This document shows, piece by piece, positions 44,495 to 46,819 of a DNA stretch of 47,994 bases. The stretch is taken from IMG/VR virus record IMGVR_UViG_3300045988_098207; one strand, given 5' to 3'. The first letter of the stretch is position 1. The number at the start of each line of letters is the position of its first letter. Under the pieces are notes generated by a model, which saw only the letters and a program-made list of their open reading frames with translations, was not told the DNA's origin and ran no database searches. The translations under genes were made by a program, and so were the position numbers. The DNA is from a virus.

Positions 44495-45498
44495 TTAACA
44501 GACTTTTCATAGACGGTAACGATGCATACTTGCAGTATGGCGTGTATGTGACGAGCGGCGGGTTCAATGAACTTGTCGCCTTTCCGCCGTTGAAGTCTGT
44601 TGACAGTAACGATTGGCAAGAGGAAGACGGCGTGGAGGCAGACCTTTCAGCCCCTGTTCTCAACACCCGTGAAATTCAGGTCAAGTTCGCTTTTAGCGGG
44701 CTTTTCAGCCGTTTCTGCGCTTTCATTGAACTGTTGTCTGACGGTGCTTACCATGAGTTCTATTGCGCCCACATACAGCGCACGTTCACGCTCAGAATGA
44801 CACAGCAGCCGAACCTTGATGTGGCGAGAATGTTAGGCACGGTAACGATCAAGTTCTCTGACGATTTCCCGATGAAAGGCTATAAGTATAAAGCCCCCGT
44901 TAGTGAGGTCATGCCGTCAGACGATTATTCGCTTGACAATACGCCTCTGACCGATTACGGCTGTCGGGTTCTGAAAGGTTCTCTGTCTGAGGTTATGAAG
45001 ACCGCACAAGTGAAACAGAACCTTTTGCGGAATATCAACACGAAGACGGGTGCCATATATGACGGGAAGCGGGTCACGTTCAAGACAAAGGACGTGAAGT
45101 TGTATTGCCTCATGCGGGCTGAGAGCCTGACAGAGTTGTGGCGTAACTATGACGCTCTTCTCCATGACCTCATTCAACCCGAGGAAAGGCTTCTGACGGT
45201 AAGAGAACTTGAACAGGAATTCCCGTGTTACTACAAGTCTTGTCAGGTTTCGGACTTCTTCCCTGACGGCAAAATTTGGTTGGAGTTCACGCTGACCCTG
45301 ACTTTCACGGGGTCTTTCAGACTTGACGACAACGATTTTGTCCTTGCAACGGAAGACGGTATCATCGTGTTCACAGAAGACGGCGAGAACGCAATAGAAA
45401 TGTTGCCTGACAGTTTCTCCGCCCGTTCTATGCAATTGGTAAATGACCGTTCTCACATACGTTTCATCAACAATGGCAATATAAGGTTCAACAACTAA
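44491..45498 (+). CDS. Distal tail protein (Dit-like) candidate, 335 aa
   Basis: Position after the tape-measure gene and an N-terminus typical of siphophage tail family proteins. The C-terminus ..SHIRFINNGNIRFNN carries the repeat module. Confidence 0.5.
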   Translation: MINRLFIDGNDAYLQYGVYVTSGGFNELVAFPPLKSVDSNDWQEEDGVEADLSAPVLNTREIQVKFAFSGLFSRFCAFIELLSDGAYHEFYCAHIQRTFTLRMTQQPNLDVARMLGTVTIKFSDDFPMKGYKYKAPVSEVMPSDDYSLDNTPLTDYGCRVLKGSLSEVMKTAQVKQNLLRNINTKTGAIYDGKRVTFKTKDVKLYCLMRAESLTELWRNYDALLHDLIQPEERLLTVRELEQEFPCYYKSCQVSDFFPDGKIWLEFTLTLTFTGSFRLDDNDFVLATEDGIIVFTEDGENAIEMLPDSFSARSMQLVNDRSHIRFINNGNIRFNN

Positions 45499-45512
45499 AA
45501 AATAAAAGACAG

Positions 45513-46313
45513 ATGAAGAAGATAAAAATTTCAGAATTGCCCCTGTATCAGTCTTTGGTCGGGCTGTTTGTCATGGGAACGGACGTGAATAACAGAAGCG
45601 TCAAGGTAAATTTGGAGTTCATTGAGAGCGAGACCACAAAAGCCGTCAAAGACGCTGACACAGCAACGGCTGCTGCTGCAAAGGCTGCGGGGCTTGCAGA
45701 GGAAGCGACAAAAACCGCCAACGCTGCCGCCCTTAGAGCGGACACGGCTCAGGCTCAGGCTGCTCAGGCTGCAAAGGCTGCGTCTGATGCGGCACAGTCA
45801 GCATTGAGCGCAAAAACTCAGGCTGACGAAGCGACAAAGGCGGCTCAGGACGCTGCCGAAGCTGCTCAGGCTGCAATGACTGCGGCAGACGAAGCAACAA
45901 CCCTGACAAAAGCCGCCACAGAAGCCTCAGAGAAAGCCACAGCCGCCGCAAAGTCAGCCACCGATAAAGTGCTTGATACGCTCGGAAAGATTGTTCCTAC
46001 GGGCTTGTCTGTTGAGAGTGTTCCCCGTCTGACCCTCGGCAATATCAACCCCGTTTACCTGAAAGCCGTTTTAAGCCCCGACACGGCTCTGAAAAACCTG
46101 ATTTATATCAGTGACAACCGAGCGGTCGAAGTCGGCTTAGACGGGCGCATTTCTATCTTAAATAAGGGCGTGAGCCGTGTTCACATTATCCCCACATGTA
46201 ACACAGCCCTTGCCCGTTCCGTTCTGATTGAGGTGGGCGAACCGACCCTGAGGCTTGTCACAACACGCCGACAGATGCGTTTCACACAGTCAGGGGCTTT
46301 GCGTATGAATTAA
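45513..46313 (+). CDS. Tail-tip protein with an Ala/Gln-rich coiled coil and an Ig-like (Big_2-type) domain, 266 aa
   Basis: ~110-aa low-complexity A/Q/T/K helix, then ..LSVESVPRLTLGNINPVYLKAVLSPDTALKNLIYISDNRAVEV.. The C-terminus ..LRLVTTRRQMRFTQSGALRMN carries the repeat module. Confidence 0.5.
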   Translation: MKKIKISELPLYQSLVGLFVMGTDVNNRSVKVNLEFIESETTKAVKDADTATAAAAKAAGLAEEATKTANAAALRADTAQAQAAQAAKAASDAAQSALSAKTQADEATKAAQDAAEAAQAAMTAADEATTLTKAATEASEKATAAAKSATDKVLDTLGKIVPTGLSVESVPRLTLGNINPVYLKAVLSPDTALKNLIYISDNRAVEVGLDGRISILNKGVSRVHIIPTCNTALARSVLIEVGEPTLRLVTTRRQMRFTQSGALRMN

Positions 46314-46346
46314 CAGAATGTCGAACCCGTTAAACAATGAAGAAAC

Positions 46347-46670
46347 ATGGGAAAGAAAGGTTACATCAGTGAATTTATGGGCGGCGGTCGAATTGTCTCT
46401 CACGGCAAAATCGCTGACCTCTCAAAGGGCTTCAAGCTCCCGAGCGGAAACCCGTTCTCGGTCTATGTCAGACCGAAGTACAGCGTATCAACTCTTGACA
46501 CGGTTCTGACCGTGCGCTGCTCTCAGGACGAGAGCCTGACAGAAGCCCCCGTGCCGTTCAATGATTGGTCGCCGTTGGCTATCTCTGAGATTGCCCCGAA
46601 CTCAGAACTGTTGAAGACAAATGACGTTTATTGGGGCAGCGGTTCTTATGAGGGGGAGGACACGCCATGA
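46347..46670 (+). CDS. Hypothetical tail-tip protein (107 aa)
   Basis: ORF in the tail-tip block. Confidence 0.5.
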   Translation: MGKKGYISEFMGGGRIVSHGKIADLSKGFKLPSGNPFSVYVRPKYSVSTLDTVLTVRCSQDESLTEAPVPFNDWSPLAISEIAPNSELLKTNDVYWGSGSYEGEDTP

Positions 46671-46819
46671 TAGTGTCGCTGTTCATCAGTGTTGCTCGGC
46701 GCATCAGGACATGGACAGCCGCCCGCCGCAACAAGAGAAAAGACCTCAGAATGAACACAGCGTCCTCGGTTCGGTTCATCAACAAAGGCAATAAATCGTA
46801 TTTCAAATTCTTAAATTAA
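46667..46819 (+). CDS. Small basic protein (50 aa) carrying the C-terminal repeat module
   Basis: ATGA overlap with the upstream stop. MIVSLFISVARRIRTWTAARRNKRKDLRMNTASSVRFINKGNKSYFKFLN. Its nucleotide sequence ttcatcaacaaaggcaata is near-identical to 45463-45481. Confidence 0.35.
   Translation: MIVSLFISVARRIRTWTAARRNKRKDLRMNTASSVRFINKGNKSYFKFLN

What the first reader, a model, noticed from the sequence alone, without database searches (positions are those of the whole stretch)
45451..46792. A short tandem peptide module (h-R-F/L/M-x-x-x-G) recurs at the C-termini of consecutive tail-tip proteins
The Dit-like protein ends ..SHIRFINNGNIRFNN (45451-45495). The Ig-like coiled-coil protein ends ..LRLVTTRRQMRFTQSGALRMN (46248-46310). 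The 50-aa ORF contains ..DLRMNTASSVRFINKGN (46742-46792). The ORF after the major tail protein reads GVRFSTNGALRLTNGGSFRFNN (38538-38603). The similarity is visible at nucleotide level: cgtttcatcaacaatggcaata versus cggttcatcaacaaaggcaata, tcggttcggttca versus tcgtttcggttca, and ggggctttgcg versus ggagctttgcg. The modules are therefore homologous rather than convergent low complexity. Two or three 7-8-residue units with alternating Arg and hydrophobic residues suggest a beta-hairpin tag. A shared docking or strand-exchange peptide that plugs different proteins into the same baseplate or tube site would explain the distribution. I do not know a described function for it.
Basis: seen in the sequence. 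Interest (0 to 1): 0.65.

Follow-up and report, generated by a model that had tools for sequence, protein, structure and literature searches.

The report
Shared C-terminal tag on tail proteins
A conserved 23-residue peptide ends several tail proteins of a common family of gut Bacteroidales phages, and reaches the tail-tube protein only by bypassing its stop codon; it is probably an optional sticky decoration, not an assembly plug, and is untested.

Summary
The window is a complete circular Prevotella/Bacteroides siphophage genome. Three tail genes end in a homologous ~23-aa module of three h-R-h strands: P-[ST]-hRhVNxR-xx-hRhTxxG-x-hRhN(N)-stop. They are Dit (45427-45495), an Ala-rich coiled-coil fibre with an Ig-like domain (46245-46310), and a 30-codon stretch in frame behind the TGA stop of the putative tail-tube gene (38532-38618). 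The fourth copy, in the 50-aa ORF, only resembles the module (hhalign probability 6.7%).

The module is selected as protein: invariant Arg uses CGN and AGR codons. It is always C-terminal. In 1.84 billion representative proteins and in IMG/VR it occurs only in this phage group's Dit, Ig-tipped fibres and post-tube slot.

It is dispensable. Dit lacks it in 48 of 80 relatives, and one copy is decaying. Every combination of tagged proteins exists.

The tube-linked copy sits in frame after UGA with a hairpin 5 nt downstream (window type). In another lineage it is in the -1 frame behind a canonical A_AAA_AAC heptamer.

Best reading, at low confidence: an accessory, exposed adhesion or avidity peptide. 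This parallels Ig/FN3/CBM decorations on Dit, frameshifted tube proteins and fibres of other siphophages.

The parts
38076..38531 (+). Putative major tail (tube) protein, 151 aa, ending in TGA (38529-38531) followed by C
   Evidence: The assignment rests on synteny only. The gene lies after the major capsid protein and four small head-tail genes, and before the chaperone-like gene and the tape measure protein (phrog_9959). It matches phrog_17745 (unknown function). No PDB sequence match was found even with a profile.
38532..38621 (+). 30-codon in-frame stretch behind the tube-gene stop: LMGVRFSTNGALRLTNGGSFRFNNLNVHLH*. The tag core is 38538-38603, and an ATG lies at 38535
   Evidence: It is conserved in frame after TGA in 12 related contigs and in the further window-type contigs found in IMG/VR. 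Against the L030 lineage it shows 8 synonymous and 10 non-synonymous codon differences, with all motif residues kept.
38537..38572 (+). RNA hairpin (about 14 bp, with G-U pairs) starting 5 nt after the TGA
   Evidence: minimum free energy -39 kcal/mol for 38526-38640, z = -2.5. No covariation support is available. Related lineages have different hairpins.
44491..45498 (+). Distal tail protein (Dit), 335 aa
   Evidence: It matches phrog_6305 'tail protein' over residues 1-304. The AF2 core has pLDDT 80-95. The top Foldseek hits are the Dit proteins of TP901-1, SPP1, p2 and 80alpha.
45427..45495 (+). Dit C-terminal tag SMQLVNDRSHIRFINNGNIRFNN
   Evidence: HMM E = 7e-10. It is conserved in diverse Dit homologues. 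Its pLDDT is 44-60.
45513..46313 (+). Fibre-like protein, 266 aa: conserved N-terminal ~40 aa, Ala-rich helix 34-157, small Ig-like beta domain ~190-244, then the tag
   Evidence: It matches phrog_20680. AF2 predicts helix 34-157. Foldseek gives weak but consistent hits to intimin and Big_2 Ig-like domains. There is no Pfam hit.
46245..46310 (+). Fibre C-terminal tag TLRLVTTRRQMRFTQSGALRMN
   Evidence: HMM E = 3e-8. The tag is conserved in all Ig-tipped homologues, including fibres with unrelated N-termini.
46347..46670 (+). 107-aa protein of unknown function. It forms an optional two-gene cassette with the 50-aa ORF
   Evidence: It matches phrog_22750. The cassette is present in the window lineage, L016, L029, L030-32, L034, L036 and L043-46, and absent elsewhere.
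46667..46819 (+). 50-aa small protein (ATGA overlap with the 107-aa gene): hydrophobic/basic N-terminus MIVSLFISVARRIRTW plus a tag-like tail LRMNTASSVRFINKGNKSYFKFLN (46745-46816)
   Evidence: It is a conserved independent gene with its own ATG, and its frame relative to the 107-aa gene varies among relatives. Homology to the tag is not supported by hhalign. It shares 20/22 nt with the Dit tag in this lineage only.

Best explanation
The feature is a portable C-terminal mini-module of about 23 residues. It consists of three short beta-strand units, each hydrophobic-Arg-hydrophobic, joined by Asn/Gly-rich turns: P-[ST]-hRhVNxR-xx-hRhTxxG-x-hRhN(N)-stop.

Its commonest home is the end of an Ig-like tip domain of fibre-like proteins. 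In subsets of this Bacteroidales siphophage family it has also been copied on to the C-terminus of Dit, behind a conserved LPDRFxxP[ST] linker, and into the slot directly behind the tube-protein stop codon. From that slot it would be attached to a fraction of tube subunits by recoding. The window lineage would use UGA readthrough, and the L017 lineage a -1 frameshift at A_AAA_AAC.

Proposed function (inferred): an exposed accessory adhesion or avidity element. Many copies of a small sheet would carry one cationic face (an Arg triad) and one hydrophobic face. They would make weak contacts with a conserved, probably anionic, component of the Bacteroidales envelope. This would hold the tail on the cell surface, as Ig-like, FN3 and CBM decorations do on Dit, frameshift-extended tube proteins and fibres of other siphophages.

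Shown here: existence, homology, protein-level selection, strict C-terminal position, restriction to these tail proteins, frequent gain and loss, and the need for recoding or separate initiation at the tube gene. Inferred: surface exposure, the fold, the ligand and the adhesion role.
For: Protein-level selection: invariant Arg is encoded by up to six codons, Gly by four, Asn by two.

Strictly C-terminal, on the gene strand only.

Confined to this phage group. Of 47 IMG/VR pattern hits, 40 are Dit ends or post-tube slots of relatives and 7 are chance. Among 1.84 billion representative proteins, 22 reach E <= 0.001. Twenty of these end with the tag and are Dit, Ig-tipped fibres or small fragments.

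Accessory nature: Dit lacks the tag in 48 of 80 loci, it is decaying in L036, and every combination of tagged proteins exists.

Not docked in cis: pLDDT is 44-60 in Dit and below 50 in the fibre.

The Ig+tag unit sits at the C-terminal end of fibres with unrelated N-termini, which is the pattern of exchangeable distal tips.

The distribution (Dit, recoded tube extension, fibre) is the one described for CBM and Ig decorations of lactococcal 936 phages and for SPP1 gp17.1* (PMC6669499; PMC8718954).

The three Arg residues are replaced together in one clade (L048 GLALV..AALLT..FLFN and L067 GLSLV..SALLN..FIFN), which suggests they act as one unit.

Recoding: a canonical heptamer A_AAA_AAC lies immediately before the tube-gene stop in L017, L018 and L201 and leads into the tag frame. 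The window lineage has an in-frame TGA-C with a hairpin 5 nt downstream.
Against: No binding or structural evidence of any kind exists. The function rests on analogy of distribution.

A 23-residue peptide is far smaller than any known phage adhesion domain.

The motif is more conserved than receptor-binding tips usually are, which fits a conserved protein partner equally well.

The small p50 protein with a tag-like tail is not explained.

Within-genome similarity of the Dit and fibre tags is only marginal (p ~ 0.05, not corrected for phylogeny).

The L030 lineage has the tube-linked tag in the -1 frame with no recognisable slippery site. The window lineage has an ATG that could yield a free 28-aa peptide instead of a fusion.

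The tube-protein identity rests on synteny only.
Confidence: 0.35

Rival explanations
1. Docking or strand-augmentation peptide. The tag binds one conserved site on the virion by adding beta-strands. A candidate site is the outer sheet of tube-fold rings, as with the C-arm of phage 80alpha gp53. Alternatively it is a universal handle to which an accessory protein binds.
For: High conservation of a short C-terminal peptide across diverged phages suits a conserved protein partner. The h-R-h periodicity suits edge strands. The 80alpha tube C-arm folds on the outer sheet of the next subunit (PMC8718954). Some within-genome convergence of tags is seen: L026 has PTARL..GAF in both tags, L116 has MRLVNTR.QMRFT in both, and window Dit and p50 share 20/22 nt.
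Against: Dit and the tube protein assemble without it in many relatives, and the tag is lost or decaying in several lineages. No obligatory co-occurrence of tagged proteins exists. AF2 gives no confident docking on the Dit core although the alignment is diverse. If it were an inter-ring latch, one would expect it on every tube subunit, not behind a stop codon.
Confidence: 0.25
2. Oligomerisation cap. Three tags, each with three ~8-residue units, wind into a small trimeric beta structure that registers the coiled-coil fibre. This would be foldon-like, or one turn of a triple beta-helix as in T4 gp5C. On Dit or tube rings neighbouring tags would trimerise, or would co-assemble with fibre or p50 tags.
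For: The module has exactly three octapeptide-like units with inward-alternating hydrophobics and Gly/Asn at the turns. It follows a long predicted coiled coil. In the Arg-less clade both faces become hydrophobic, as expected for a buried core.
Against: A trimerisation cap has no obvious use on hexameric Dit or on a minority of tube subunits. The Ig domain separates the tag from the coiled coil.
Confidence: 0.15
3. The tube-linked copy is not fused to the tube protein. It is made as a free ~28-aa peptide by termination-reinitiation (ATG at 38535, three nucleotides after the TGA; GTG in L017). Together with p50 it would act as a soluble competitor or regulator of tag-mediated contacts. This rival concerns the expression route and is compatible with any of the proposed functions.
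For: An ATG lies two codons after the stop in all window-type contigs. p50 shows that small free proteins with a tag-like tail are encoded by these phages. The L030 lineage lacks a slippery site.
Against: L030-type contigs have no start codon between the upstream stop region and the conserved G-V-R, apart from a TTG about 30 codons upstream. L017-type contigs carry a textbook -1 heptamer exactly at the tube-gene end. No lineage was found with the tag permanently fused to the tube protein or as an annotated separate gene.
Confidence: 0.3
4. The repeats are nucleic-acid elements at gene ends, such as terminator or regulatory hairpins or recombination linkers, and the peptide pattern is a by-product.
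For: The tube-linked copy overlaps stable hairpins (z about -2.5). AGGTTCAACAACCT (R-F-N-N-L) is self-complementary. The copies lie at gene 3' ends.
Against: The codon table shows amino-acid conservation with free synonymous change, including CGN/AGR switches at every Arg. The hairpins differ between lineages and a pairing position changes without compensation. No + strand terminator-like site follows the tag.
Confidence: 0.03

Closest known systems
Multi-site adhesion decorations of lactococcal 936-group (Skunavirus) siphophages: CBMs in 'evolved' Dit, in the frameshift-made tube extension TpeX and in the neck passage structure (PMC6669499)
   Same: Related accessory modules are appended to several different tail proteins of one virion: Dit, the tube protein through programmed recoding, and fibre-like appendages. 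They are variably present among close relatives. That paper also notes a shared, unassigned C-terminal ~50-residue stretch on different decorated proteins.
   Different: Those modules are folded domains of 100 or more residues with demonstrated host binding. Here the shared unit is a 23-residue peptide with no demonstrated ligand. The hosts are Gram-negative Bacteroidales. There is no sequence relationship.
SPP1 gp17.1* (and lambda gpV / T5 pb6 Ig-like domains): C-terminal decoration of the tail tube protein, made in SPP1 by a programmed frameshift at about 1:3 and dispensable (PMC8718954)
   Same: It is an extension ORF at the very end of the tube gene, reachable only by recoding. It is dispensable and is presumed to be exposed on the outside of the tube.
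   Different: The extension here is about 28 aa, not an FN3/Ig domain. The window lineage would need UGA readthrough rather than a frameshift. The same peptide is also on Dit and on a fibre.
Q-beta A1 (readthrough) protein: coat protein extended by suppression of a leaky UGA (own knowledge, not checked here)
   Same: A structural protein of a phage gains a C-terminal extension in a minority of copies by reading through UGA.
   Different: Q-beta is an RNA phage with a capsid protein and a ~200-aa extension. I found no described case for a dsDNA phage tail tube protein in the paper search.
T4 fibritin foldon and the T4 gp5C triple beta-helix octapeptide repeat (own knowledge)
   Same: Both are short C-terminal beta elements at the end of a coiled-coil fibre. 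The gp5C repeat has ~8-residue periodicity with alternating inward hydrophobics and Gly at the turns.
   Different: There is no sequence similarity, and trimer formation was not tested. The foldon is not shared with ring proteins such as Dit or the tube protein.
C-arm of phage 80alpha tube protein gp53 (PMC8718954)
   Same: It is a C-terminal extension of a tube-fold protein that adds on to the outer beta-sheet of a neighbouring subunit.
   Different: The C-arm is part of every subunit and contributes to inter-ring contacts. Here the tag lies behind a stop codon and is absent from most relatives.

Membership tests
Recoding-dependent C-terminal extension of a siphophage major tail protein (SPP1 gp17.1*, 936-group TpeX type) | An extension ORF abuts or overlaps the 3' end of the tube gene and has no independent access other than recoding | tested here: inconclusive
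   The ORF abuts the stop in frame in the window type. It is in the -1 frame and overlapping in the L017 and L030 types. However, an ATG (window) or GTG (L017) could allow separate initiation.
Recoding-dependent C-terminal extension of a siphophage major tail protein (SPP1 gp17.1*, 936-group TpeX type) | A recognisable recoding signal (slippery heptamer or leaky stop with a downstream structure) | tested here: met
   L017, L018 and L201 have A_AAA_AAC directly before TAA, leading into the tag frame. The window has TGA-C plus a hairpin 5 nt downstream, z = -2.5. The L030 type has no heptamer.
Recoding-dependent C-terminal extension of a siphophage major tail protein (SPP1 gp17.1*, 936-group TpeX type) | The extension encodes a folded Ig-like, FN3 or CBM domain | tested here: not met
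   The extension is 28-30 residues and consists of the three-unit tag plus LNVHLH or LSTITP.
Recoding-dependent C-terminal extension of a siphophage major tail protein (SPP1 gp17.1*, 936-group TpeX type) | Two protein products (short and extended) are present in virions | not testable with these tools
   This needs SDS-PAGE or mass spectrometry of virions.
Distal tail protein (Dit) | The gene lies just downstream of the tape measure gene in a siphophage tail module | tested here: met
   The tape measure gene is 39502-44064 (phrog_9959), followed by a 142-aa gene and then 44491-45498.
Distal tail protein (Dit) | A Dit fold (N-terminal tube-like beta-sandwich ring domain plus C-terminal domain) | tested here: met
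   The AF2 core has pLDDT 80-95. The best Foldseek hits are TP901-1 Dit 4v96, SPP1 Dit 2x8k, p2 Dit 2wzp and 80alpha 6v8i, with E about 1e-4 and probability 0.98-1.0.
Bacterial Ig-like domain, group 2 (Big_2), for the domain preceding the fibre tag | A match to the Pfam model above threshold | tested here: not met
   No Big_2 hit was found at E <= 1.
Bacterial Ig-like domain, group 2 (Big_2), for the domain preceding the fibre tag | An Ig-like beta-sandwich fold | tested here: inconclusive
   The AF2 domain has pLDDT of about 65. Foldseek hits to intimin, Big_2-CBM56 and S-layer Ig domains cover 50-59 residues, with E 0.07-0.3 and probability 0.9-1.0.
Foldon / triple beta-helix trimerisation element | Forms a homotrimer of intertwined beta strands | not testable with these tools
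   Only monomer AF2 was available. The tag pLDDT was below 60.
Major tail (tube) protein, for the 151-aa gene | A tail-tube fold or sequence membership of a known tube family | tested here: inconclusive
   It matches PHROG 17745 (unknown function). A profile search of the PDB found nothing. The assignment rests on gene order only.

The most novel reading that the evidence does not exclude
The tag is a self- or hetero-associating beta 'Velcro' peptide with a dedicated recoding programme. A dsDNA phage would use UGA readthrough (window lineage) or a -1 frameshift (L017 lineage) to seed a few tagged subunits along the tube. These subunits, together with six Dit tags and free tag-like p50 peptides, would reversibly capture the tagged tips of the fibres, or a common accessory protein. 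The result would be a stowing or deployment system, or a branching system, built from one 23-residue peptide. UGA readthrough extension of a tail tube protein would itself be new for dsDNA phages.
Probability: 0.15. Interest if true: 0.8.

Novelty: new variant of a known kind. Interest (0 to 1): 0.55.

Why it matters
These phages are abundant in human and animal gut metagenomes. One Dit cluster alone stands for 3,076 member sequences. They infect Prevotella and Bacteroides, for which almost nothing is known about siphophage adsorption.

A 23-residue module shared by Dit, a fibre tip and a recoded tube extension would be the smallest known portable tail decoration. It would be an easy handle for experiments such as peptide binding, tag swaps and display.

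The tube-linked copy offers a natural comparison of three ways to reach the same extension: in-frame UGA, a canonical -1 heptamer, and a -1 frame without a heptamer. This makes recoding in Bacteroidales, which lack Shine-Dalgarno-driven initiation, directly testable.

If the tag instead proves to be a docking strand, it would define a new assembly code for this phage family.

Tried and rejected
Megablast and tblastn against GenBank phages found no near relative, only one weak unannotated hit.

Pfam and NCBIfam gave no family for any of the eight tail-region proteins, or for two fibre homologues in NCBIfam.

Sequence searches of the PDB with Dit, the fibre, a tube-protein profile and the tag profile found nothing.

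A tag-profile query to the word-indexed protein search returned only six short fragments and cost one of three searches.

The AF2 model of the fibre was poor (mean pLDDT 63) because only near-identical homologues were admissible.

The genome-collection DNA pattern scan was dominated by chance hits, as expected for 596 Gb. Only about 9 of 100 hits were true tags, in Bacteroidales or mis-binned MAGs.

The test for within-genome co-evolution of the Dit and fibre tags was marginal.

I looked for conserved RNA pairing across the three tube-linked lineages. The hairpins are lineage-specific and one pairing position changes without compensation.

Ideas considered from memory and dropped without a formal test were a T9SS C-terminal domain (70-100 aa, different pattern), an OMP beta-signal (which needs a terminal aromatic residue), a TonB box, an ssrA-like degron, and a type V pilin donor strand. 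Global stop-codon reassignment was rejected because the genes are intact under code 11 and 25 of 61 crude ORFs end in TGA.

P0252 and P0267 from the exhaustive search are repeat-driven false positives.
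Full report
**Context.** The window is a complete circular assembly with a 55-nt terminal direct repeat. It is a siphophage whose late genes are all on the + strand. 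The gene order is:
- major capsid protein, 35211-36302
- four small head-tail genes
- a 151-aa gene, 38076-38531
- a chaperone-like gene, 38714-39292
- tape measure protein, 39502-44064 (phrog_9959)
- a 142-aa gene
- a 335-aa 'tail protein', 44491-45498 (phrog_6305)
- a 266-aa Ala-rich protein, 45513-46313
- a 107-aa gene and a 50-aa gene
- a 483-aa tail protein that runs across the assembly junction
- a 1462-aa tail protein

Relatives are prophages of Prevotella marseillensis and Bacteroides fragilis and are very common in gut metagenomes. GenBank phages contain no close relative.

**The observation.** A tandem regex finds 14 six-frame hits in the window against 2.6 +/- 1.6 in shuffles. Six of the 14 are the four loci, and the rest are Arg/Leu-rich off-frame noise.

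I fetched 80 related loci from IMG/VR with Dit identities of 57-99% and built a 23-position HMM of the module. I scanned every six-frame stop-to-stop ORF. Significant hits occur only on the gene strand and only 0-1 residues from a stop codon, or 6 residues for the tube-linked type.

The aligned consensus is P-[ST]-h-R-h-V-N-x-R-x-x-h-R-h-T-x-x-G-x-h-R-h-N-(N)-stop. It has two invariant and one nearly invariant Arg, a nearly invariant Gly and a terminal Asn.

**It is a peptide, not a nucleic-acid element.** Across 17 distinct Dit-type and 20 distinct fibre-type DNA sequences, each invariant Arg is encoded by a mix of CGN and AGR codons. Gly is encoded by all four codons and Asn by both. The hydrophobic positions vary among I, L, M, F and V. 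The tube-linked copies of two lineages differ at 18 codons, 8 of them synonymous, and every motif residue is kept.

**What carries it.**
- *The 335-aa protein is a Dit.* Its AF2 core has pLDDT 80-95, and its best Foldseek matches are the Dit proteins of TP901-1, SPP1, p2 and 80alpha.
- *The 266-aa protein is fibre-like.* It has a conserved N-terminal ~40 residues, a long helix (34-157) and a small beta domain. That domain weakly but consistently resembles intimin/Big_2 Ig-like domains. Pfam does not recognise it.
- *The 151-aa gene is called the tube protein from gene order only*.

A profile search of 1.84 billion representative proteins returned 22 hits at E <= 0.001. Twenty end with the tag and two are repeat artefacts. 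The true hits are Dit proteins, Dit fragments, and Ig-tipped fibre-like proteins. Several of these fibres have completely different N-terminal parts, including typical fibre motifs such as GVMSAxDK.

A degenerate DNA pattern for R-h-T-x-x-G-x-h-R-F-N-N found 47 places in IMG/VR. Forty are Dit ends or post-tube slots of this phage group and seven are chance. The module is therefore family-specific, tail-specific and always C-terminal.

**The fourth copy is different.** The 50-aa ORF is a real, conserved, independently initiated small gene. Its own ATG is conserved, and its frame relative to the 107-aa gene varies. In L036 it follows the stop in frame. Its family consensus is LR[ML]N-T-x-S-S-V-[MR]-F-I-x-x-G-N-K-x-x-F-K-F-L-N. 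The profile-profile comparison with the tag aligns only nine columns (probability 6.7%). In the window lineage, the ORF's VRFINKGN and the Dit tag's IRFINNGN are 20/22 identical in DNA. Both differ from their orthologues elsewhere, so local conversion within this lineage is likely.

**The tag is accessory.**
- Dit reaches the tag in only 32 of the 80 loci.
- In other lineages Dit stops after a conserved ..FTEDG..AI[DE] hairpin, or even at the end of its core.
- L036 carries a decaying copy: an in-frame TAA, a frame change, and the third Arg changed to His.
- Every combination exists: Dit only (L040/41), fibre only (L049 and L069 groups), tube-linked plus p50 with neither Dit tag nor fibre (L030-32), and all four (window).
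- In the AF2 models the tag forms 3-4-residue strands on the h-R-h triplets, but at pLDDT 44-60, and it does not dock on the Dit core although the alignment was diverse.
- One clade has replaced all three Arg residues together while keeping spacing, hydrophobics, Gly and the terminal Asn.

**The tube-linked copy.**
- *Window lineage.* In the 12 related contigs examined, and in the further window-type contigs found, the tag stretch is in the tube-gene frame directly behind TGA-C. An ATG lies two codons later, and a ~14-bp hairpin begins 5 nt after the stop (z = -2.5).
- *L017, L018 and the Porphyromonadaceae MAG L201.* The tag is in the -1 frame. The tube gene ends CCA AAA AAC TAA, a canonical A_AAA_AAC heptamer whose -1 slip reads ...APKK-LSGVRCVNDW....
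- *L030-32, the IMG/VR contigs of L083, L093, L111 and L124 (partly the same contigs as L030-32), and the Prevotella MAG L170.* The tag is again in the -1 frame, there is no heptamer, and a 10-bp stem includes the stop codon. This arrangement equals the window type minus one G in a G-run. The peptide is still evolving conservatively.

No lineage has the tag permanently fused to the tube protein. I therefore favour recoding that tags a minority of tube subunits. A free ~28-aa peptide made by reinitiation remains a serious alternative. The hairpins are lineage-specific and lack covariation support. TGA itself is common in this genome (25 of 61 crude ORFs).

**Mechanism.** The distribution is Dit, a recoded tube extension and the distal end of exchangeable fibre tips. 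The tag is patchily present and dispensable. This matches the pattern described for accessory adhesion modules of Gram-positive siphophages:
- CBMs in evolved Dit, in the frameshift product TpeX and in the neck passage structure of lactococcal 936 phages (PMC6669499).
- The dispensable FN3 extension gp17.1* of SPP1 (PMC8718954).

I therefore commit, at about 0.35, to an exposed avidity or adhesion peptide. It would be a three-stranded mini-sheet with a cationic Arg face and a hydrophobic face that binds a conserved envelope component.

The main rival (about 0.25) is binding to a conserved virion site by strand addition, as with the 80alpha C-arm. This would explain the strong conservation. It fits poorly with dispensability and with placement behind a stop codon. 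A foldon-like or triple-beta-helix cap (about 0.15) fits the fibre and the Arg-less clade but not Dit or the tube protein. A nucleic-acid explanation is essentially excluded. None of these could be tested directly, because multimer modelling was not available.

**Novelty.** Decoration of several tail proteins with related accessory modules, including through recoding of the tube gene, is known. The module here is new and uncharacterised: there is no Pfam, NCBIfam or PDB match, and the matching PHROG families carry no functional annotation beyond 'tail protein'. It is an order of magnitude smaller than known decorations, and it may involve UGA readthrough, which I did not find described for a dsDNA phage tail tube protein. 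I rate it a new variant of a known kind, with moderate interest.

Noticed in passing
window 1-55 and 47940-47994; ORF 46826 -> 338 across the junction: The window has a 55-nt terminal direct repeat, so it is a circular assembly (probably the complete genome). The 'big tail protein' ORF continues across the junction (483 aa, no tag). The 1462-aa ORF at 1359-5747 is the next tail gene. Relative to L002 the window lacks about 1.4 kb (L002 13918-15304).
   Followed up: partly
L014 4477-4551, L028 4502-4574, L034 4694-4766, L043 4466-4540, L049 3842-3915; L017 3605-3679: The slot between the tube gene and the chaperone gene holds a tRNA-Met(CAT) gene in many relatives. In L017 it holds a tRNA-Gly(CCC) just after the tag ORF. 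The window has no tRNA, so the same intergenic slot carries either a tRNA, the tag ORF, or both.
   Followed up: partly
P0254 (97 aa; matches window 1359-1574 and 45370-45495): This database protein joins the first 72 residues of the 1462-aa tail protein to the last 28 residues of Dit, including the tag. It is either an assembly chimera or a rearrangement that moved the tag.
   Followed up: no
L036 10880-11015; L025 10880-10945: In L036 the Dit tag is out of frame behind an in-frame TAA, and its third Arg is changed to His, so tag loss is in progress. In L025 Dit ends ...LPNRFANASTY with no tag remnant.
   Followed up: yes
L048 and L067 fibre C-termini (GLALVNSRSAALLTSDGSFLFN; GLSLVDTRTSALLNGDGSFIFN): One clade keeps the spacing, hydrophobics, Gly and terminal Asn of the tag but has replaced all three Arg residues with Ala/Ser, Leu and Leu/Ile.
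   Followed up: partly
L030 11077-11433: The p50 homologue of the L030 lineage is about twice as long and carries two tag-like tails (..VMFMVVGGKPVFKFIT.. and ..VSFIQRNNKAVFKFLNK).
   Followed up: no
window 39346-39501: A 51-aa ORF (phrog_25685, unknown function) lies between the chaperone-like gene and the tape measure gene, ending one base before the tape measure start. It may be the second part of a G/GT-type chaperone pair. No overlap with the upstream gene or slippery site was examined.
   Followed up: no
L135, L147, L183 (genome contigs): True Dit tags occur in MAGs labelled Oscillospiraceae, Ruminococcus and Eubacteriales. These are probably mis-binned Bacteroidales phage contigs rather than evidence for Firmicutes hosts.
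   Followed up: no
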